Virus record (IMG/VR): IMGVR_UViG_3300045988_038154 | Span: 1-42,572 of that record | Direction: 5' to 3' (one strand) | DNA: 42,572 nt | DNA from: a virus | In this document: one piece after another, positions 10,717 to 19,449 of the stretch | How the letters are laid out: every line of letters begins with the position of its first letter | How positions within the stretch are numbered: position 1 is the first letter of the stretch | The notes under the pieces: model-generated | What the model saw: only the letters and a program-made list of their open reading frames with translations | Told to the model about the DNA's origin: nothing | Database searches by the model: none | Program-made: the position numbers and the translations under genes

Positions 10717-11040
10717 CTATTGGTTCGCCAAGGATTCTAGGAATGCTTTGATGCTATCTCTCATGGATTCTTCACGCTCCGTGCGTTCAAAGTCCGAGCC
10801 GTCAAGCTTAGTTACGCTGTATTCAACTTCCACGACAAGCACTTCGCAGCCAAACACTTCAGCAAGCTTGTCAATGCCAGCTTTTTGTTTTTCGTATGGT
10901 TCGATTGGTAGCTGTAGCGCTTTCCAAAGTCGGTGATCAAAAGTCGCTGTAAATGCTATGTTTCCTTTGTCTTTATAGCTCGTAAGAAAGCTATCCTTTT
11001 CAGCGCTGTAGAATACGATGTTTTTATTGTTTTCTTTCAT
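10717..11040 (-). CDS. Hypothetical protein, translationally linked to the adhesin gene
   Basis: Its AAGGAG RBS lies inside the last codons of the adhesin gene, and its ATG is 2 nt after the adhesin stop. Confidence 0.6.
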   Translation of the reverse strand: MKENNKNIVFYSAEKDSFLTSYKDKGNIAFTATFDHRLWKALQLPIEPYEKQKAGIDKLAEVFGCEVLVVEVEYSVTKLDGSDFERTEREESMRDSIKAFLESLANQ

Positions 11041-11042
11041 GA

Positions 11043-12620
11043 TTATTCTCCTTCACCTTCGTTATATTTCTTGAAGCTCAATGTCAAACCTGCGATACCT
11101 GCAGAGATAACCAAGAGACCAAGAGTTGACATGATGCCCTCTTTTTCACCAGTATGTGGTAGAGTACCACCGTAAACCGTCGTATTTGCCACTTCTTTTG
11201 GCTCAGAATCGTTTTTATAAACGACCTCGGTAATTTCTACCTCTTTTGTTTTCGGAGCGTCTACGGGCTTATTAGGTGCCTCTTTAGGCGTGCTAGGTTT
11301 TTCTGGGATCACTGGTTTTTCTGGTTCTGTTGGAATGTGCAATTCTCGCACCTCTGGAATGCCGGGGATGCCGCCTTGGAATTCTGGGATGTCAACTTTT
11401 GGTGCATCGTGTGGAATTTCGAATGTTGGTTCTGGTTTGTTCTCGCCAGACGCATCTCCACGTCCGCCTACAAGCTGAATTTTCATATATGAAACAGCAC
11501 CGTCTGATTCAGCTTTCAGTTCAATCTTGTTAGTAGGATTAGTTGAGTCCTTAACAGCATTTACAAGTTTAGTCTTATAGTTTACATAGATCATGTGATC
11601 CAAGCGATCCATTTTGATAGTGAAGCCATGATCAGATTTACTGATAGACTTAACTAAGTCCATAGCATCACCTTTATCAATCCAAGGATCAACACTTTCA
11701 ATATTCTTTACTTCAAAGAAGTTATCAACAAGTTTTTGGTTCTCAGACATTTCATCAATGATAGTCACATAGTTTAGAACACGTTTTGCATAGTTTACAC
11801 GAGCTGTCCAATTGATTACTGTAGGATCATCTTTGTCTTGCGAACCCCACTTTGCAATCAATTCATCTTTGCCAATTACTTGTTCACTACCAATGTTAGT
11901 TGTTACCAAAGTACCATTAAAATTGGCTGTTACAGGCTTGCCTGAAACTACTTTGTCAGTCCAACTTGCATCAAGTTTGAGACTCATGCTCTTATTTAGA
12001 GGGTGAGTTTTGAAATAGTCGTTGAATACAGTAGTTACTTTGTTAGTGTTGGCATCCGCTGTAGCTTTACCTACTACTGCTTTTTCAGGGTTATGTACAT
12101 CAAACTCGTAAGAAGTTTGGAATTTCACTTCTTGAGGCAAGTCAAAAGTAACCTTGTCACCCTCGTTAATTGCCATGTCGTCTGGGAAGTTGATATCTTT
12201 GTACTCAACTTCAAACGGGCTATATTTGCCAGTACCATTAGGGAAATCCACTTGCACGTCAGGGTTTGTCACTGTGATAGTGTCACCCTCTTTGACAACG
12301 CTAGTAGGTGCTGCCGGTGTTTCCACTACTGGTTGAGTTGCTGGTGCTTCTGCAATCGGTTGAGATTCTACTGGTGCTGGTGCCAACACTTTTGGTGTTT
12401 CTGCCGCTGGTTCGCTAGGTGTAACTGTGACATTTCCAGCGTTGTCAGCTGTATAGACATTAGACACCGCTGGTTGAGCGTCAACTACTGGCTGTGTTGT
12501 TTCGTCCGCTGATACTTGGCCAGCACCGATAAGCAATGCTGTAGCGAGCGCAAGTGTTCCGCAAAGACCATAGGCTTTTGATTTAGTGAAAGATGGTTTT
12601 GCAATTGTTTGTGTTTTCAT
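11043..12620 (-). CDS. LPXTG cell-wall-anchored surface protein, MSCRAMM-like adhesin
   Basis: Signal peptide MKTQTIAKPSFTKSKAYGLCGTLALATALLIGAGQVSADE, a Pro-rich wall-spanning region, then LPHTG + hydrophobic helix + KK. The A-domain motif VTTVFNDYF resembles TYTFTDYV. The start at 12620 follows AAGGAG. Confidence 0.85.
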   Translation of the reverse strand: MKTQTIAKPSFTKSKAYGLCGTLALATALLIGAGQVSADETTQPVVDAQPAVSNVYTADNAGNVTVTPSEPAAETPKVLAPAPVESQPIAEAPATQPVVETPAAPTSVVKEGDTITVTNPDVQVDFPNGTGKYSPFEVEYKDINFPDDMAINEGDKVTFDLPQEVKFQTSYEFDVHNPEKAVVGKATADANTNKVTTVFNDYFKTHPLNKSMSLKLDASWTDKVVSGKPVTANFNGTLVTTNIGSEQVIGKDELIAKWGSQDKDDPTVINWTARVNYAKRVLNYVTIIDEMSENQKLVDNFFEVKNIESVDPWIDKGDAMDLVKSISKSDHGFTIKMDRLDHMIYVNYKTKLVNAVKDSTNPTNKIELKAESDGAVSYMKIQLVGGRGDASGENKPEPTFEIPHDAPKVDIPEFQGGIPGIPEVRELHIPTEPEKPVIPEKPSTPKEAPNKPVDAPKTKEVEITEVVYKNDSEPKEVANTTVYGGTLPHTGEKEGIMSTLGLLVISAGIAGLTLSFKKYNEGEGE

Positions 12621-12649
12621 GGTATAATCTCCTTGGTATAATTTTCTCT

Positions 12650-12676
12650 GCACAGGCCCTTACCTGTGCTTTTTTT
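12650..12676 (+). terminator. Strong plus-strand intrinsic terminator with no plus-strand gene upstream
   Basis: GCACAGG-ccctta-CCTGTGC followed by T7. Confidence 0.6.
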
Positions 12677-12680
12677 AGTG

Positions 12681-12831
12681 CTTCAATCCGCACCCATCGC
12701 CCACCGTGTCATGTCTCAATGTTTTATTAGACTTATGAATGGGAAAATTAGGAAAAAAGTAATTTAGTAAAGATTTTTTTGGGGAAAGGTATAAGTTACA
12801 CTCCACGGTGAGCCGTGGCTACGGATTGAAG
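12681..12831. repeat. 28-bp imperfect inverted repeat (23/28) flanking a 95-bp AT-rich spacer in the adhesin leader
   Basis: The reverse complement of 12681..12708 (cttcaatccgcacccatcgcccaccgtg) matches 12804..12831 (cacggtgagccgtggctacggattgaag) at 7 + 6/11 + 10 positions. Confidence 0.6.
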
Positions 12832-12840
12832 ATGGCAATA

Positions 12841-13002
12841 TTATCGGTTTCCGTATTTTGCTAGTAGCTCACGCTCACGTCTCTGACGTGCTTCATATTT
12901 CTGGTCGTTGATTTCTCGTGGTGTCCACACTGGCTCGAAGAAGCACTCTTGTTGTGGTTGTTTCTTAGACCAAATCCAGTTAAATAGTTTTGATGGTTTC
13001 AT
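12841..13002 (-). CDS. Small ORF (53 aa) not in the supplied track
   Basis: Hand translation gives MKPSKLFNWIWSKKQPQQECFFEPVWTPREINDQKYEARQRRERELLAKYGNR. AAAGGAA lies upstream. Confidence 0.45.
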   Translation of the reverse strand: MKPSKLFNWIWSKKQPQQECFFEPVWTPREINDQKYEARQRRERELLAKYGNR

Positions 13003-13058
13003 TTGTTTGTTTCCTTTCGTGATACAATTGAGTTATCCCAATGAAGGGAGGTGGAATT

Positions 13059-13289
13059 ATGAGCGAACAATTCGATGCATTTAAACAAGCAGCTGACAAG
13101 GCACTAACCGAATTTGCGGGCGGTTCTGATGCTATCGTCAAACTTGTTGATGAATTACTCAAAGCCCAAGCGGTTGATCTTGAAACTTCATTCAAGCTTC
13201 AAGAAGTTGATAAGCTTAATGCAAAGATTTCTAAACTCGAGAGCCGAGTTGCTGAATTGAATGATCAACTTTCTCGACACGATAAGTAG
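13059..13289 (+). CDS. Plus-strand coiled-coil protein (76 aa) embedded in the minus-strand early operon
   Basis: Strong SD GAAGGGAGGTGG 7 nt before the ATG, and an extended -10 TGaTACAAT at 13020..13028. Confidence 0.55.
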   Translation: MSEQFDAFKQAADKALTEFAGGSDAIVKLVDELLKAQAVDLETSFKLQEVDKLNAKISKLESRVAELNDQLSRHDK

Positions 13290-13431
13290 CTTCATTCAAC
13301 CGTTTTAAAGCAGATATGCGCTCTTGCTCAACGCTGGCATAGAATGCTTCTCTAGCTTTAATCCATTCCTCTAGCAAGTCGCTAGGGGTTTTTGTTATTT
13401 GCCGTGAATACGGCCATCTTGTTGGCCTCAT
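13231..13431 (-). CDS. Hypothetical protein (start uncertain), with a convergent 59-bp overlap with the plus-strand ORF
   Basis: The track ORF is 13231..13542; internal Met MRPTRWPYS is taken as the start. The RBS is poor. Confidence 0.35.
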   Translation of the reverse strand: MRPTRWPYSRQITKTPSDLLEEWIKAREAFYASVEQERISALKRLNEATYRVEKVDHSIQQLGSRV

Positions 13432-13628
13432 GTTGCATTGTATTTCCTTTCTTCTATTACCCAACCGCACCAACAAGCTAACGAAGTATTTAAATTTAGG
13501 AGTCATCGTTAATGATATGTTTACGTACTTACCGCAAGCCACTTGGAAGGCTTTTTGTTGATATTGTTTAATAAAGGATAATTATTTTTTCGCTTCGTTA
13601 GCTCACTGCTACGGTTGGGAGATTGATG

Positions 13629-13868
13629 TTATTTGAATCTGTTTCTAGTTTTCCACTCAATGAAGGACTTAAACCCCTCATAGTTGATGAAAACCAGTTT
13701 ATGTGTCGGGTTGAACACGTAGTCTCGAAAGTCTTTGTTGTCCCTCATTTCTCTAATGAGGTTCTTTGCCATCGACTTCCCTAGACCTTCCCACCGCTGC
13801 ATGAGGTGGTCATAGTCTCCCCACTCAGCCGTTTCGTTCACTCCGACTGGTTTGTAGGTGATTTCCAT
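13629..13868 (-). CDS. Small DNA-binding/excisionase-like protein (tentative)
   Basis: Size and position downstream of the antirepressor; similarity to excisionase-like phage proteins is only by eye. Confidence 0.4.
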   Translation of the reverse strand: MEITYKPVGVNETAEWGDYDHLMQRWEGLGKSMAKNLIREMRDNKDFRDYVFNPTHKLVFINYEGFKSFIEWKTRNRFK

Positions 13869-13885: not shown

Positions 13886-14611
13886 CTAAATTGTTAAGCG
13901 TTCTTGATTAAGAAACTTGTTGACGAAATACTGTTGGCCCTTACCAGTAACCTTAGTTGTCGTGTTGGTAGTTGTGTGGCCGTCAGCGTGATTAATATTT
14001 GTCTTTTTCAACTCAAACAGTTCTAAATCCATGCTCTTTTGCGTTGGTTGATTCCAAGAATCCCCACGGCGACTGATTAGATAGCCGTTAGAGCGTAGCC
14101 ACTGAAAGAGCTTGTTTTGACCAATATCAATCCCGTTCTGTTTCAAGATTTTAGCCAGCTCACCAATTAGACAAGATGACTTGCTAGCACTTACTGCATC
14201 AGCAAACAGCACCTTAGGACGGTCAGCTTCAATCTGTGCTTCTAGCTTATGGACTTTCTTGTCAGCCATGAGTAACGCTCTAGCCATGATTTTCTCTGGG
14301 CTATTGAAGTCTTTCTCAACTTGGATGAAGTATTCTCTGACCTCGTGTCCTTTATTTGTTTTCGACATCATAGCTAGATGTTCAGCCATGCGGATTGTAA
14401 CGGCGTAATCTTGTAATTTTTTTGTCCCGCCGTATTGATTTTGCTGTGTAGTTGTAACTACGGAGCTAAAATCTTCGTTTTCTTTGAACATTTTGAAGTT
14501 TTGCTCAACCCACTGACTGAAGCGAGTTTTTACCTCTAAACTTCTATGTAACTCACGAGCTGAAACAACAGCGCTATCATCTTTGAAATCTATATGAATC
14601 AACTCATTCAT
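13886..14611 (-). CDS. ant: Antirepressor (Bro-N/ORF6N N-terminal domain + KilAC C-terminal domain)
   Basis: VVSARELHRSLEVKTRFSQWV (ORF6N-like); SSCLIGELAKILKQNGIDIGQNKLFQWLRSNGYL (KilAC-like). Confidence 0.85.
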   Translation of the reverse strand: MNELIHIDFKDDSAVVSARELHRSLEVKTRFSQWVEQNFKMFKENEDFSSVVTTTQQNQYGGTKKLQDYAVTIRMAEHLAMMSKTNKGHEVREYFIQVEKDFNSPEKIMARALLMADKKVHKLEAQIEADRPKVLFADAVSASKSSCLIGELAKILKQNGIDIGQNKLFQWLRSNGYLISRRGDSWNQPTQKSMDLELFELKKTNINHADGHTTTNTTTKVTGKGQQYFVNKFLNQERLTI

Positions 14612-15168
14612 TTAATCACCTCTCCCATTTTTTTATTTTTCATAACATAATATGTAATATCGTCATCCATTTTTGAATCGGCAAGTCTCTTCTCAGTGAC
14701 ACCTATTAAAATTGGATTGATAAATTCTTTTGAATAGGCTAATAATTGAATAGTGGGATTTTTATTATCTGTTTTCAATTCAATAATCACTGGTCTCTTG
14801 CTGCTTTTTTCTTCGGCTAAAATGTCAATTCGGCCACTTTTTATTACAAATTCACTTTTCACAAATTCAAAATTAGGGAACAGCGTTTCGAAGTTTTGAC
14901 AGATATAATTCTGCATATTCTTTTCACGGTCTTCCCTGCTGTTTTCACATTCCAGAGCGTGAATGAACTCTAAATCTAAAAAATCAATGAGATATATTGT
15001 TCCTTGGAACTTATTCAGATATTTATCTTTAATAAAAGTTCTCAGCTTTTTGATTTGCTGTGAGTTGTAATTGCATTTTTGCTTTTCTCTAGCTACCCAC
15101 AAAAACAATTCTTCAAAAGAACTAAACTCATTGTTTTTGTTTAATGTTATATTGATTAAATTGTTCAT
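14608..15168 (-). CDS. PD-(D/E)XK nuclease-like protein (NucS/DUF91/Shedu-type core), AT-rich
   Basis: FPNFEFVKSEFVIKSGRIDILAEEKSSKRPVIIELKTDNKNPTIQLLAY contains D...ExK...QxxxY. It has ATGA overlaps with both neighbours. Confidence 0.55.
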   Translation of the reverse strand: MNNLINITLNKNNEFSSFEELFLWVAREKQKCNYNSQQIKKLRTFIKDKYLNKFQGTIYLIDFLDLEFIHALECENSREDREKNMQNYICQNFETLFPNFEFVKSEFVIKSGRIDILAEEKSSKRPVIIELKTDNKNPTIQLLAYSKEFINPILIGVTEKRLADSKMDDDITYYVMKNKKMGEVIK

Positions 15169-18276: not shown

Positions 18277-19449
18277 ATGTGGGTAGAAGAATTACCAAAC
18301 GGAAAATATAAATATTTTGAGAGATACAAGGACACTTACACTGAGAAGTGGAAACGGGTATCTGTAACGCTTAACAGTGGGTCTAATCGAGCAAAGAAAG
18401 AGGCTCAACGCTTACTGGATGATAAGATAGCTGAGAAGATGGCTGGCTTAAACACTACCGATGCATCATTTAACGACGTGTTGCACGAATGGTGGGAATT
18501 CCACAAGAAAGGCATTCGAAGGACTTCGATTAGTTCCATGACCAGTAATGTCAGGTATGTCGAAGAGAATTTCGCTGTAGATGTCAAAATAGCAAACATT
18601 GATACACACTATATCCAACGCTTTATCAACGATGCCGATGTTCCACGTTCAATCCTTGAGCGTGTTAAATCTATTTTAAACCTTACCTTCGATTACGCTT
18701 GCACCGTTGGTTACATTCCTAGCAACCCTGCAAGACAAGCAAAACTTCCCAAGAAACAACAAACGATGGAAGATTACGACAAGATAAGAAATAAATTTCT
18801 AGAGATAGACACTGAACTACTTCCGCTACTTGCAGAATTACGAAAGCAAAAACGCACTTATAGAAATGCCATCCTTGCAGAGTTTCTCTTTGTCAGCGGT
18901 GCTCGAATCGGTGAAGCGGTAGCCCTTGAAACGTGCAATTACAGAAAAGAGGACGGCTACCTTGATATTTTTGGGACTCTTGATAGTGTCCAAGGCTACA
19001 AGAGGGCTAAGAAAGAACCACCTAAAACGCCAGCCGGCTACCGTAGCAATAAACTAACTAAACGTGAAATAGAATTGCTGGATGAAGCTATACAGATTCG
19101 TGATCTAAACAAGTCGTTATCAGACGATTGGGCGAACATGGATAGAGATTATATTTTTGTGACTGACAAGGGAGTGCCACTTCAACGGAACTCATTTAAC
19201 AATTCTATCCAAGCTGCTAACAAGAGACTGGATAAGCCGATTAATAAACCGATATCATCACATATCTTCAGACATACGCTGGTCAGCTATCTGGCTGAGA
19301 ATGGTGTCCCGTTAAAGGCTATCATGGATAGGGTTGGGCACGATGACAGTGATACCACAATGAAGATTTATACCCACGTAACCAACAAAATGAAGAATAA
19401 AGTGGTTGAAATCATTGATAACTTGCCCCTTTCGTGCCCCTCGAAATAA
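18277..19449 (+). CDS. int: Tyrosine integrase
   Basis: ARIGEA...HIFRHTLVSYLAENG...GHDDSDTTMKIYTHV (R..HxxR..Y catalytic signature). Confidence 0.95.
   Translation: MWVEELPNGKYKYFERYKDTYTEKWKRVSVTLNSGSNRAKKEAQRLLDDKIAEKMAGLNTTDASFNDVLHEWWEFHKKGIRRTSISSMTSNVRYVEENFAVDVKIANIDTHYIQRFINDADVPRSILERVKSILNLTFDYACTVGYIPSNPARQAKLPKKQQTMEDYDKIRNKFLEIDTELLPLLAELRKQKRTYRNAILAEFLFVSGARIGEAVALETCNYRKEDGYLDIFGTLDSVQGYKRAKKEPPKTPAGYRSNKLTKREIELLDEAIQIRDLNKSLSDDWANMDRDYIFVTDKGVPLQRNSFNNSIQAANKRLDKPINKPISSHIFRHTLVSYLAENGVPLKAIMDRVGHDDSDTTMKIYTHVTNKMKNKVVEIIDNLPLSCPSK

What the first reader, a model, noticed from the sequence alone, without database searches (positions are those of the whole stretch)
11043..12620. 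Phage-encoded LPXTG-anchored MSCRAMM-like adhesin inserted in the early region
The 525-aa product has a Sec signal peptide and an Ala/Pro-rich N-terminal stretch. It also has Ig-like A-domain features (VTTVFNDYF resembles the TYTFTDYV motif, and a GGRGDASGE latch-like segment contains RGD). A Pro-rich wall-spanning region follows, then LPHTG + TM + KK. After the KK the tail continues with an unusual acidic YNEGEGE, which encodes the RBS of the next gene. A sortase substrate has no role in virion assembly, so this is a lysogenic-conversion candidate that could alter host adhesion, biofilm formation or surface exclusion of other phages. Its position is atypical for morons: it sits between the antirepressor/Xis-like cluster and the replication genes, in the lytic transcription direction.
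Basis: partly seen in the sequence, partly recalled or inferred. Interest (0 to 1): 0.65.

Follow-up and report, generated by a model that had tools for sequence, protein, structure and literature searches.

The report
Phage-carried wall-anchored streptococcal adhesin gene
A temperate phage of the mouth and gut bacterium Streptococcus salivarius carries a gene for a cell-wall-anchored adhesin of the staphylococcal MSCRAMM/Cna type; the gene is common and strongly conserved in phages of commensal streptococci but has been deleted from their dairy relatives, and although it is already annotated in public phage genomes its function is untested.

Summary
The minus-strand ORF 11043-12620 encodes a 525-aa protein with a signal peptide, an Ala/Pro-rich linker, two Ig-like domains, a Pro-rich stalk and LPHTG + TM + KK. 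Pfam finds Big_8 and Collagen_bind. The AF2 model (pLDDT 83.5) matches SdrE, ClfA, SdrG, Cna, RspB, Cnm and Ace at E 1e-17 to 1e-12. The tail encodes the next gene's RBS.

- The gene is not a fresh insertion. It sits at this position in YMC-2011, SA-TP2 and Javan534-539, and occurs in more than 200 IMG/VR contigs; YMC-2011 already annotates it as an LPXTG collagen-binding protein.
- The A-domain is under strong purifying selection (dN/dS 0.09).
- RGD is incidental: K replaces R in 54 of 97 copies.
- It has no promoter or terminator of its own. It is the first ORF after a covarying structured RNA leader and is tightly coupled to the replication genes, so it probably rides the early lytic transcript. 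Expression in lysogens is unproven.
- At least 117 S. thermophilus phage records keep the leader plus a 14-codon microhomology deletion scar of this gene.

Verdict: a real, functional accessory gene; a new member of a known kind; moderate interest.

The parts
11043..12620 (-). CDS of the 525-aa LPXTG adhesin (stop codon 11043-11045)
   Evidence: ORF list and translation. Pfam Big_8 + Collagen_bind. TIGR01167 LPXTG anchor. dN/dS 0.09-0.25 along its length in 97 distinct copies.
12507..12620 (-). Signal peptide, aa 1-38 (basic n-region, hydrophobic AYGLCGTLALATALLIGAG, VSA|DE cleavage site), a YSIRK-like streptococcal variant
   Evidence: Read from the sequence. Conserved in about 90 homologues. 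Weak TIGR03726 match, 17.6 bits, below the cut-off.
12297..12506 (-). Ala/Pro-rich N-terminal linker, aa 39-108; variable in length between homologues
   Evidence: Sequence. Homologue lengths range from 477 to 710 aa with variation here and in the stalk.
11901..12296 (-). Ig-like domain 1 (aa about 109-240), carrying the VTTVFNDYF motif at aa 195-203
   Evidence: Pfam Big_8, aa 142-226. AF2 strands at model residues 7-142. Motif aligned with ClfA IYTFTDYV and Cna TITFND and invariant in relatives.
11469..11900 (-). Ig-like domain 2 (aa about 241-384), Cna-N2/Collagen_bind type, with invariant K257 and D289 aligned to Cna K176 and D209
   Evidence: Pfam Collagen_bind, aa 253-359. AF2 strands at model residues 155-282. 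MAFFT with the 2f6a sequence.
11442..11468 (-). GGRGDASGE segment (aa 385-393): Gly-rich strand directly after domain 2, where the lock/latch of Clf/Sdr/Cna proteins lies; the RGD is incidental
   Evidence: Predicted beta-strand at model residues 286-293. GG[K/R]GDASG: 54 K against 42 R. Only the glycines are conserved in distant relatives.
11163..11441 (-). Pro-rich wall-spanning stalk (aa 394-486); a shortened version of the SIALI-17 repeat region of longer homologues
   Evidence: Sequence. NF043031 SIALI-17 is hit in the longer homologues P0088, P0103 and P0121 but not in the window copy.
11046..11162 (-). Cell-wall sorting signal: LPHTG (11148-11162), hydrophobic stretch, FKK, tail YNEGEGE
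   Evidence: TIGR01167 scores 16.5 against a cut-off of 15.9. LPxTG variants in homologues: N 54, H 13, S 9, V 5, K 5, L 4.
11048..11053 (-). Shine-Dalgarno AAGGAG of the next gene, embedded in the last adhesin codons; next ATG at 11040
   Evidence: Sequence. The same arrangement occurs in 37 loci, and the tail co-varies with the downstream gene.
10717..11040 (-). Downstream 107-aa ORF (phrog_2486, unknown function), translationally coupled; followed by the DnaD-like, DnaC-like and RecT genes
   Evidence: PHROG scan. Synteny in 53 loci.
12805..12828 (-). 5' arm of a 22-bp long-range RNA helix in the leader
   Evidence: MFE z-score -5.5. RNAalifold and pair counts on 87 distinct leaders: 99.2% of cells paired and 11 pairs of this helix with compensatory changes.
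12684..12707 (-). 3' arm (G-rich block) of the long-range helix; the arms enclose a 97-nt G-poor loop (12708-12804)
   Evidence: 342 G.U cells mean that only the coding-strand RNA pairs fully (99.2% against 85.5%).
12651..12679 (-). Invariant A-run (12669-12679) followed by a 7-bp GC-rich hairpin (12651-12668), 16 nt upstream of the adhesin SD (12629-12634)
   Evidence: Three stem variants with compensatory changes (CACAGG/CCTGTG, CATGGG/CCCATG, CACGGG/CCCGTG). On the opposite strand the same sequence reads as an intrinsic terminator.
12841..13002 (-). Upstream 53-aa ORF (phrog_1022), the usual 5' neighbour of the leader
   Evidence: PHROG scan. Present 300-400 nt upstream of the adhesin ATG in 40 loci.

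Best explanation
**What it is.** The gene encodes a Sec-exported protein that the host's housekeeping sortase attaches covalently to peptidoglycan. A Pro-rich stalk holds out a two-domain MSCRAMM/Cna-type binding region.

**How it most likely binds (inferred from homology).** It binds an extended host-derived ligand, a peptide or collagen-like chain, between the two Ig-like domains. Binding would follow the dock-lock-latch or collagen-hug mechanism.

**What kind of gene it is (shown).** It is accessory cargo of temperate siphophages of the S. salivarius group and of related oral streptococci.
- It is dispensable for phage multiplication.
- It is held under strong purifying selection in human-associated phages.
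- It has been deleted in the dairy S. thermophilus phages.

**Wiring in this phage.**
- Shown by sequence: it is the first ORF after a conserved structured RNA leader at the head of the replication module. It has no promoter or terminator of its own. It overlaps the RBS of the next gene.
- Inferred: it is made from the polycistronic early transcript whenever that operon is on. That means after infection or induction, and possibly at a low level from leaky or plasmid-state expression. It would not come from a dedicated lysogen-specific promoter.

**Benefit (inferred).** Niche-specific adhesion or retention on mucosal, salivary-pellicle or neighbouring-cell surfaces.
For: **Protein architecture**
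- ORF and motifs.
- Pfam Big_8 and Collagen_bind above threshold.
- LPXTG anchor above threshold.
- AF2 pLDDT 83.5.
- Foldseek matches to SdrE, ClfA, SdrG, Cna, RspB, Cnm and Ace at E 5e-17 to 4e-12 over about 310 columns.
- Motif register with ClfA and Cna, and invariant K257/D289 at the Cna isopeptide positions.

**Functional maintenance**
- dN/dS 0.086 in the A-domain with dS about 1.3.
- The A-domain is 85-100% identical across 53 clusters.

**Phage-borne and syntenic**
- YMC-2011, SA-TP2 and Javan534-539.
- 215 IMG/VR contigs.
- An integrated prophage beside rplS.
- Prophages of S. parasanguinis and S. gingivalis.

**Dispensable**
- Microhomology deletion scars in 858, P7952, SW31, SW15 and DT1, and in at least 117 phage records.

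**Operon wiring**
- No coding-strand promoter or terminator.
- A 2-nt gap with the RBS inside the tail.
- A covarying helix spanning the leader.
- In S. thermophilus relatives, early transcription starts at the cro-type promoter and runs through the downstream early genes (PMC13575424).

**Host sortase.** S. salivarius has srtA (PMC5826255).
Against: - No expression, localisation or binding data exist for any member. No paper on it was found in four searches, and the YMC-2011 paper is not held.
- The ligand is unknown. The Pfam name 'collagen binding' does not establish specificity.
- The promoter scan covers only the sigma-70 consensus, so a weak or activator-dependent promoter in the leader cannot be excluded.
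- The Asn partner of the putative isopeptide could not be aligned unambiguously.
- Why a phage would profit from an adhesin made mainly in cells committed to lysis is not obvious.
- In one S. parasanguinis prophage the homologue is followed by a strong terminator and a new promoter, which is different wiring.
Confidence: 0.6

Rival explanations
1. Classical lysogenic-conversion moron. The adhesin is transcribed in uninduced lysogens from a promoter of its own in the 220-nt leader, independently of the CI-repressed early operon, and changes the adhesion or biofilm behaviour of the lysogen.
For: - A 220-nt conserved non-coding stretch is unusual in a compact phage genome and could hold regulatory signals.
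- The gene is useless for lytic growth.
- Its retention in commensal phages and loss in milk phages fit a host-benefit trait.
- In an S. parasanguinis prophage the homologue ends a transcription unit with a strong terminator.
- From memory, not checked here: YMC-2011 is kept as a 3-4-copy extrachromosomal element. If so, the replication genes downstream of the adhesin must be expressed in the carrier state.
Against: - No sigma-70-like site on the coding strand between 12621 and 12840.
- Candidate -10 boxes in the loop are not conserved.
- Both arms of the covarying helix must lie on one RNA, so transcripts start upstream of 12828.
- There is no terminator after the gene, and it is translationally coupled to the replication genes. 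A constitutive promoter would therefore also drive those genes.
Confidence: 0.25
2. Phage-directed surface modification for the phage's own benefit. The wall-anchored protein masks or binds the phage receptor. It would then act as superinfection exclusion, or stop progeny being wasted on debris as T5 Llp does. Alternatively it tethers infected cells to neighbouring host cells.
For: - The gene sits in the early lytic operon, the timing expected for such functions.
- Surface-exposed exclusion proteins are well known in the sister S. thermophilus phages (Ltp; PMC3952083).
Against: - No similarity to Ltp-type or other exclusion or defence families. PADLOC gives no hit and PHROGs gives none.
- There is no lipobox.
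- The fold is that of host-ligand adhesins.
- The gene is lost precisely in the dairy phages, where superinfection and adsorption to debris still occur.
Confidence: 0.1
3. Not a real phage gene: a chimeric assembly, or a decaying chromosomal fragment carried passively.
For: - The window copy is among the shortest in the family, at 525 aa against a median of 594.
- A few frameshifted or truncated remnants exist in other contigs.
Against: - Both junctions are reproduced in six published S. salivarius phages and dozens of independent metagenomic contigs.
- The identical protein is on 9 contigs of up to 46 kb.
- The reading frame is intact and all modules are present.
- dN/dS is 0.09-0.25.
Confidence: 0.01

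Closest known systems
Cna-type collagen-binding MSCRAMMs (S. aureus Cna, S. mutans Cnm, E. faecalis Ace, Erysipelothrix RspB)
   Same: - Two tandem Ig-like domains, with the second matching Pfam Collagen_bind.
- The best whole-model TM-scores are to Cna 2f6a/2f68 (0.54), Ace (0.50-0.53) and RspB (0.51).
- A TITFND-like motif in domain 1.
- Lys and Asp at the Cna K176/D209 positions are invariant.
- Signal peptide and LPXTG anchor.
   Different: - Only 12-17% sequence identity, and no hit in sequence searches of the PDB.
- No Cna_B stalk repeats; a Pro-rich SIALI-17-type stalk takes their place.
- Ligand unknown.
- Encoded by a phage, inside its early operon.
Clf/Sdr dock-lock-latch MSCRAMMs (ClfA, SdrG, SdrE, Bbp)
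   Same: - The top Foldseek E-values are to this group (5e-17 to 1e-15).
- Pfam Big_8 for domain 1.
- VTTVFNDYF aligns in register with IYTFTDYV.
- A Gly-rich segment follows domain 2, where the lock/latch lies.
   Different: - No Ser-Asp repeat region.
- Domain 2 scores as Collagen_bind rather than SdrG_C_C.
- Latching was not tested.
- Streptococcal and phage-borne.
SasX/SesI, the LPXTG surface protein carried on a phiSPbeta-like prophage of S. aureus and S. epidermidis
   Same: A sortase-anchored surface protein carried by a prophage and linked to colonisation (PMC7047976 and PMC7285666, listed). It is the closest precedent for 'phage cargo = wall-anchored colonisation factor'.
   Different: Sequence similarity was not tested here. 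From memory, SasX sits at the end of a very large prophage as a typical add-on gene. The present gene is embedded in, and translationally coupled to, the early/replication operon and belongs to the MSCRAMM fold class.
Ssal_phage00024 of Streptococcus phage YMC-2011 and its homologues in SA-TP2 and Javan534/535/536/539 (NCBI name: SIALI-17 repeat-containing surface protein)
   Same: A true orthologue, 57-76% identical over the full length and in the same position. It is already annotated as 'lpxtg cell wall surface protein, collagen binding domain protein'.
   Different: - The window copy is shorter, with fewer stalk and linker repeats.
- It is followed by the DnaD/DnaC/RecT type of replication module.
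- None of these orthologues has a published functional study in the library searched.
Ltp-type superinfection-exclusion lipoproteins of temperate S. thermophilus phages (TP-J34)
   Same: A surface-exposed protein encoded by a temperate phage of the same phage-host group (PMC3952083).
   Different: Ltp is a lipoprotein encoded in the lysogeny module and expressed in the lysogen. The present protein has no lipobox, is LPXTG-anchored, has an adhesin fold and lies in the early lytic operon.

Membership tests
MSCRAMM (adhesins with two adjacent IgG-like subdomains that bind by dock-lock-latch or collagen hug) | Two adjacent IgG-like (DEv-IgG) folded subdomains in the ligand-binding region | tested here: met
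   AF2 model with two all-beta domains, pLDDT 83.5. Foldseek full-length matches to SdrE, ClfA, SdrG, Cna, Ace and others at E down to 5e-17. Pfam Big_8 + Collagen_bind.
MSCRAMM (adhesins with two adjacent IgG-like subdomains that bind by dock-lock-latch or collagen hug) | Conserved TYTFTDYVD-like motif in the first subdomain | tested here: met
   hhalign pairs VTTVFNDYF with ClfA VIYTFTDYV, although the alignment itself is weak (E 0.06). MAFFT pairs it with Cna TITFND. The motif is invariant in 44 relatives.
MSCRAMM (adhesins with two adjacent IgG-like subdomains that bind by dock-lock-latch or collagen hug) | C-terminal latch strand that complements a sheet of the first subdomain | tested here: inconclusive
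   The Gly-rich GG[K/R]GDASG segment is predicted as a strand right after domain 2.
MSCRAMM (adhesins with two adjacent IgG-like subdomains that bind by dock-lock-latch or collagen hug) | Ligand binding demonstrated | not testable with these tools
   Needs binding assays with the recombinant A-domain.
Cna-type collagen-binding adhesins (Pfam PF05737) | Collagen_bind domain above the Pfam gathering score | tested here: met
   46.9 bits against a cut-off of 27.5, aa 253-359.
Cna-type collagen-binding adhesins (Pfam PF05737) | Intramolecular isopeptide triad of Cna N2 (K176, D209, N293; residue numbers recalled from memory and consistent with the 2f6a sequence) | tested here: inconclusive
   K176 aligns with K257 and D209 with D289, both invariant in 44 sequences. 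N293 falls in a gapped stretch, and an invariant N364 lies 6 residues away.
Cna-type collagen-binding adhesins (Pfam PF05737) | Cna_B repeat stalk | tested here: not met
   No Cna_B hit in Pfam at E<=1. The stalk is Pro-rich, and homologues match NF043031 SIALI-17.
Sortase A substrates (LPXTG cell-wall anchor) | C-terminal LPXTG, hydrophobic stretch and positively charged residues | tested here: met
   LPHTG-EKEGIMSTLGLLVISAGIAGLTLSF-KK. TIGR01167 scores 16.5 against 15.9. Pfam Gram_pos_anchor scores 17.8, below its cut-off of 20.
Sortase A substrates (LPXTG cell-wall anchor) | N-terminal secretion signal | tested here: met
   A typical n/h/c-region with VSA|DE, read from the sequence and conserved. 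No dedicated predictor was available.
Sortase A substrates (LPXTG cell-wall anchor) | A sortase in the host | not tested
   The host genome is not in the window. S. salivarius JIM8777 has srtA (PMC5826255).
Phage morons / lysogenic-conversion cassettes | Own promoter upstream and own terminator downstream | tested here: not met
   No coding-strand sigma-70-like site in 12621-12840 and no terminator after the gene. A 2-nt gap to the next ATG. The helix spanning the leader implies transcription from upstream.
Phage morons / lysogenic-conversion cassettes | Dispensable for the phage life cycle | tested here: met
   Cleanly deleted in at least 117 S. thermophilus phage records and in 8 of the 98 distinct leader-bearing sequences examined.
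Phage morons / lysogenic-conversion cassettes | Expressed from the repressed prophage | not testable with these tools
   Needs transcriptomics or proteomics of lysogens.
Ltp-type superinfection-exclusion lipoproteins | Lipobox signal peptide, and a location in the lysogeny module | tested here: not met
   No [LVI][ASTVI][GAS]C lipobox: the Cys lies in YGLCG, inside the hydrophobic core. The gene is in the early lytic operon. No PADLOC or PHROG hit.

The most novel reading that the evidence does not exclude
The adhesin is not a lysogen-expressed moron. It is the first product of a leader-controlled early/replication transcript. A roughly 190-nt covarying RNA structure with no Rfam family would process or stabilise the message; it consists of a 22-bp long-range helix, an A-run and a hairpin. 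A short antisense RNA from a conserved extended -10 overlapping the start codon might add control. Cells that switch on the early operon (on infection, on induction or in the plasmid state) would then coat their wall with an adhesin. That adhesin would hold the coming burst, or the carrier cell, in a host-rich mucosal or biofilm site. This would be a phage-directed adhesion strategy, abandoned when the phage lineage moved into milk.
Probability: 0.15. Interest if true: 0.65.

Novelty: new member of a known kind. Interest (0 to 1): 0.4.

Why it matters
S. salivarius is a pioneer coloniser of the human mouth and gut, and its adhesins decide where it lives.

**What is shown.** Most of its temperate phages carry a highly conserved MSCRAMM-type wall-anchored adhesin. 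The dairy-adapted sister phages have deleted exactly this gene.

**What would follow if the protein is functional.** Phage carriage would then be a variable determinant of adhesion in a major commensal. This would parallel SasX in staphylococci, which makes it a testable link between the oral and gut virome and bacterial colonisation.

**Why expression timing matters.** The gene is wired into the early/replication operon behind a structured RNA leader. That raises the question of when the adhesin is made, and for whose benefit.

**Limits.** The existence of the gene is already recorded in public annotations. The value added here is the structural assignment, the population-level conservation, the deletion scars and the leader, not a new kind of system.

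Tried and rejected
- **First AF2 run.** The alignment was shallow (all sequences 85% identical or more) and the model was unusable for domain 2, pLDDT <50. It was repeated with 31-100% identity relatives found by searching with the CJLB-5 homologue.
- **Sequence searches of the PDB.** Single sequence and profile both gave nothing meaningful. Only fold comparison worked.
- **hhalign of the family profile against Cna.** It returned an off-register local match between domains, so MAFFT with the Cna sequence was used instead.
- **RGD as an integrin motif.** Rejected, because K and R alternate.
- **Lipoprotein reading of the YGLCG cysteine.** Rejected: there is no lipobox, and TIGR03726 is below its cut-off.
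- **The hairpin at 12650-12669 as a terminator ending an upstream unit on the coding strand.** Rejected, because no U-run follows it on that strand.
- **The leader as adhesin-specific.** Rejected, because it also precedes the first replication gene in about 300 adhesin-less phage records.
- **The hairpin decaying once the adhesin is lost.** Not consistent. It carries a C.A mismatch in S. thermophilus phages but is intact in 7 of the 8 adhesin-deleted leaders.
- **Known RNA family for the leader.** None at gathering or E<=1 thresholds apart from a spurious miRNA hit.
- **Rho-utilisation reading of the G-poor loop.** Set aside because, from memory, streptococci lack Rho.
- **Literature.** No functional study of the gene was found. 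The YMC-2011 paper could not be read.
Full report

Yes. The minus strand carries an ORF whose ATG is at 12620, preceded by AAGGAG at 12629-12634, and whose stop codon is at 11043-11045. It encodes 525 aa.
- a signal-peptide-like N-terminus ending in VSA|DE;
- an Ala/Pro-rich linker (aa 39-108);
- VTTVFNDYF at aa 195-203;
- GGRGDASGE at aa 385-393;
- a Pro-rich segment (aa 394-486);
- LPHTG at aa 487-491, followed by a hydrophobic stretch, FKK and YNEGEGE.

The last codons, GAA GGA GAA TAA, contain AAGGAG. They sit 2 nt from the ATG (11040) of the next ORF.

**2. What the window is**

The window is a complete temperate siphophage of the Streptococcus salivarius group, in reverse orientation. 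GC content is about 40%.

Around the gene, all on the minus (early lytic) strand, the order is:
- anti-repressor, 13886-14611;
- excisionase-like protein, 13629-13868;
- a small phrog_1022 ORF, 12841-13002;
- the adhesin;
- a phrog_2486 ORF, 10717-11040;
- a DnaD-like gene, a DnaC-like gene and RecT.

A candidate integrase ORF lies on the plus strand at 18277-19449; its function was not checked here.

DNA and protein searches of GenBank phages identify the nearest relatives as S. salivarius phages YMC-2011, SA-TP2 and Javan534/535/536/539.

**3. The protein**

*Domain assignment.* Pfam finds Big_8 (aa 142-226, E 5.5e-15) and Collagen_bind (aa 253-359, E 4e-12), both above their gathering scores. 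NCBIfam finds the LPXTG anchor just above its cut-off, and a streptococcal YSIRK-variant signal just below its cut-off. There is no PHROG family and no sequence-level PDB hit.

*Structure prediction.* The first AF2 model, built on a shallow alignment, failed for the second domain. A second search seeded with a 33%-identical homologue supplied relatives of 31-44% identity. The new alignment gave a confident model with pLDDT 83.5, pTM 0.74 and two all-beta domains.

*Fold comparison.* Foldseek against the PDB returns only MSCRAMMs at the top, with alignments of about 310 columns:

| Match | E-value |
|---|---|
| SdrE | 5e-17 |
| ClfA | 7e-17 |
| RspB | 3e-16 |
| SdrG | 9.5e-16 |
| Bbp | 1.2e-15 |
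| Cna (best TM-score, 0.54) | 1.4e-15 |
| Cnm | 6.7e-15 |
| Ace | 4.2e-12 |

Sequence identity to these is 12-17%. The only strong hit among predicted viral structures is a metagenomic siphovirus 'clumping factor'.

*Motifs.*
- The family profile aligns VTTVFNDYF in register with ClfA IYTFTDYV (the ClfA sequence was verified against 1n67).
- A multiple alignment places the motif opposite Cna TITFND (the Cna sequence was verified against 2f6a).

*Putative isopeptide.* Cna K176 and D209 are, from memory, two of the three isopeptide residues of the Cna N2 domain. They align with K257 and D289, which are invariant in all 44 relatives. The Asn partner is ambiguous; an invariant N364 lies nearby.

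*RGD.* The RGD is not conserved. The segment reads GGKGDASG in 54 copies and GGRGDASG in 42, and only the glycines survive in distant relatives. The segment is predicted as a strand directly after domain 2, which is where the lock/latch of Clf/Sdr/Cna proteins lies. I could not inspect the coordinates to see what it docks onto.

*Stalk.* The stalk is a shortened form of the Pro-rich 'SIALI-17' repeats that give longer homologues their NCBI name. The window copy, at 525 aa, is among the shortest in a family ranging from 477 to 710 aa.

**4. Distribution and selection**

The gene is neither an assembly artefact nor a one-off insertion.
- The identical protein is on 9 contigs of up to 46 kb, and more than 120 clusters of 68-88% identity exist, many on phage-sized contigs.
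- In IMG/VR, 215 contigs encode a relative.
- Among GTDB genomes it appears in prophages of Streptococcus sp., S. parasanguinis and S. gingivalis, flanked by helicase, primase and terminase genes.
- In an S. salivarius chromosome it lies in a prophage integrated beside rplS, with the same gene order as the window.
- YMC-2011 already annotates it as 'lpxtg cell wall surface protein, collagen binding domain protein'. SA-TP2 calls it an LPXTG anchor protein. The Javan records mislabel it 'sialidase' or 'WapA'.
- The A-domain is 85-100% identical among 53 cluster representatives.
- Over 97 distinct coding sequences, dN/dS is 0.086 in the A-domain at a saturated dS of about 1.3, and 0.12-0.25 elsewhere.

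The protein is therefore maintained by selection.

**5. Wiring**

*Downstream.* The gene never has a terminator in the S. salivarius lineage. The stop-to-ATG distance is 2 nt in 37 loci, 4 nt in 6 and -1 in 5 (two further loci overlap by 4 nt). The remaining loci have a short conserved spacer with its own RBS. The C-terminal tail changes with the downstream gene:

| Tail | Downstream context |
|---|---|
| NEGEEE / NEGEGE | before the phrog_2486 gene |
| NEEKED / NEKED | before a 438-aa gene |
| NGKEDK / NEK | before the spacer |

This confirms that the tail doubles as an RBS donor. It also shows the acidic tail to be a family trait rather than an oddity.

*Upstream.* No sigma-70-like promoter is found on the coding strand between 12621 and 12840. 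No coding-strand terminator is predicted between about 15400, near the promoter-like sites at the presumed early-promoter region, and the gene.

**6. The leader**

The 220-nt leader turned out to be the most conserved non-coding DNA of the region.

*Structure.* Its two conserved blocks, 12805-12828 and 12684-12707, are complementary. They fold into a 22-bp long-range helix closing a 97-nt G-poor loop. After the helix come an invariant A-run, a 7-bp GC hairpin (12651-12668), the SD and the ATG. The MFE z-score is -5.5.

*Covariation.* On 87 distinct leaders:
- 99.2% of cells form pairs;
- 13 of 29 pairs show compensatory double changes, 260 cells in all, a value reached by 0 of 500 shuffles;
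- partners slid by 1-3 columns pair in only 23-45% of cells.

*Strand.* 342 cells are G.U pairs, so the opposite strand could pair in only 85.5% of cells. The structure therefore belongs to the coding-strand RNA. Both arms must sit on one molecule, so transcripts start upstream of 12828. The adhesin is thus read from a polycistronic early transcript.

*Known families and relatives.* No Rfam family matches. In S. thermophilus relatives, early transcription starts at the cro-type sigma-A promoter and runs into the downstream early genes (PMC13575424).

*Function.* The function of the leader is unknown. A processing and stabilisation role is a reasonable inference, but nothing more. On that reading, the two-turn helix would be an RNase III-type substrate. 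The A-run plus hairpin would act as a cleavage site and a 5' stabiliser.

*Opposite strand.* The reverse complement of the SD-ATG spacer forms an extended -10 (TGnTAnnnT) in 93 of 94 leaders. The hairpin followed by a T-run reads as an intrinsic terminator. A short antisense RNA is possible but unproven.

**7. Deletion scars**

The leader is not specific to the adhesin. It occurs in 306 phage records, mostly S. thermophilus Brussowvirus and Moineauvirus phages that lack the gene.

In those phages the leader's SD is followed by a mini-ORF and then the first replication gene:
- ATGAAAACATTTAAAATTACAACAATTAGGGAGGGTAGGAATTAA, encoding MKTFKITTIREGRN.
- The first 27 nt match the 5' end of adhesin genes (MKSFNTQTI...).
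- The remainder matches the spacer found 3' of the adhesin in other loci.

In SW31 the junction AAAACAATTGAAGTGGTTGGAGGGTAGG joins the two at an AATTG microhomology. At least 117 records carry leader plus scar. SW15 and DT1 show further decay.

- 82 have a full-length adhesin;
- 7 are cut by contig ends;
- 8 fall in an intermediate-length class in which the adhesin is lost. In most of these the phrog_2486 gene is fused to the leader SD, and two (L109, L199) are frameshifted remnants;
- 1 further leader is followed by a 21-codon truncated remnant.

The gene is therefore ancestral to this phage group and dispensable for multiplication. It has been retained in human-associated phages and lost in the milk lineage. 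No S. thermophilus phage appears among the 14 records with a protein match. The S. vestibularis phage SVep1 has the leader but no adhesin.

**8. Mechanism**

*Shown.* The architecture is that of a secreted, sortase-anchored MSCRAMM/Cna-type protein. The gene is carried by phages, is under purifying selection, is dispensable for the phage and is embedded in the early operon.

*Inferred.* These points follow from established knowledge of MSCRAMMs and sortase substrates:
- export by Sec;
- cleavage between T and G of LPHTG by host SrtA, with linkage to peptidoglycan;
- binding of an extended ligand between the two domains.

*Open.* The ligand, and the timing of expression.

I favour co-expression with the early operon (confidence 0.6 for the whole account). 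The classical lysogen-expressed moron gets 0.25, a superinfection-exclusion or receptor-masking role 0.1, and artefact 0.01.

Wiring differs in other lineages. One S. parasanguinis prophage has an 11-bp bidirectional terminator and an 11/12 promoter right after the homologue.

**9. Comparison and novelty**

The protein belongs structurally with the MSCRAMMs. It lies between the Cna-type and the Clf/Sdr-type and lacks their stalk repeats. As phage cargo, its closest precedent is SasX (PMC7047976, PMC7285666).

The orthologue is already annotated in published phage genomes, and PGAP names the family. The finding is therefore a new member of a known kind. What was added here:
- the structural assignment;
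- the demonstration of selection and prevalence;
- the operon wiring;
- the deletion scars in dairy phages;
- the covarying leader.

No functional study was found in the library, and the YMC-2011 paper was not available.

Interest is moderate at 0.4. The protein itself is unsurprising to a specialist. Its near-universal carriage by S. salivarius phages, its early-operon position and its clean loss in milk phages make a concrete, testable question.

Noticed in passing
window 12651-12828 (minus strand); also L097 2383-2557, L098, L100-L102 and about 80 IMG/VR loci (alignment A4): A conserved structured RNA leader of about 190 nt sits at the head of the replication module of S. salivarius and S. 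thermophilus phages. It consists of a 22-bp long-range helix, a G-poor loop, an A-run and a hairpin. On 87 distinct leaders 99.2% of cells are paired, 13 pairs show compensatory changes, and the G.U pairs are specific to the coding strand. There is no Rfam family and the function is unknown.
   Followed up: yes
L097 2540-2640 (phage 858), L098, L101 (SW31), L102 (SW15), L100 (DT1): S. thermophilus dairy phages carry a mini-ORF of 11-14 codons (MKTFKITTIREGRN) that is a microhomology (AATTG) deletion scar of the adhesin gene. At least 117 phage records carry the leader plus this scar.
   Followed up: yes
window 12620-12676 (plus strand): An extended -10 (TGGTATAAT, 12620-12628) lies antisense to the adhesin start and overlaps the start codon. 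It is conserved as TGnTAnnnT in 93 of 94 leaders. An intrinsic-terminator-like hairpin plus T7 follows at 12650-12676. A cis-antisense RNA of about 40-55 nt is possible. In the window the TGGTATAAT box is duplicated at 12634-12642.
   Followed up: partly
L099 (MW057932.1, 'Campylobacter phage CJLB-5') 4947-6377: This record encodes a 476-aa LPKTG-anchored homologue, 33% identical, at the same position: after an excisionase and before a replication protein. The locus has 42.5% GC. The closest relatives that carry a name are labelled Streptococcus sp. or S. panodentis (most have no name). The Campylobacter host label is almost certainly wrong.
   Followed up: partly
L003 3992-5713 (Javan535; the same in Javan534 and Javan539); Javan371; Javan311: Public annotations of the orthologues are inconsistent. 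They read 'sialidase' (Javan534/535/539), 'cell wall-associated protein precursor WapA' (Javan371) and 'putative peptidoglycan bound protein' (Javan311). The 'sialidase' label has no support in the domain content.
   Followed up: partly
window 13041-13289 (plus strand), terminator-like site 13368-13388 (plus strand): An 82-aa coiled-coil-like ORF on the strand opposite to the early operon has its own terminator-like hairpin and overlaps a 103-aa minus-strand ORF (13231-13542). It is present in only 5 of about 97 related loci. No PHROG or PADLOC hit.
   Followed up: partly
window 14608-15168 (minus strand): The 186-aa early ORF upstream of the anti-repressor hits the PADLOC candidate defence models PDC-S18 (E 1e-11) and SduA/DUF4263 (Shedu nuclease domain, E 2e-4). 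This is a possible phage-borne defence or nuclease gene. It is found in only 2 related loci.
   Followed up: no
L006 9247-9274 and 9428-9455 (S. parasanguinis MAG prophage): In this lineage the adhesin homologue is followed by an 11-bp bidirectional terminator hairpin and then a near-consensus promoter (TTGAGA-16-TATAAT). The gene therefore ends a transcription unit there, unlike in the window.
   Followed up: partly
H36-H39 (Listeria phage LM 4-11-1 / LM 4-14-1 records OR846743, OR848102, OR848115, OR846734): Unannotated Listeria phage records encode proteins with 30% identity to aa 123-350 of the adhesin. MSCRAMM-like cargo may be more widespread in phages of Firmicutes.
   Followed up: no
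   Followed up: no
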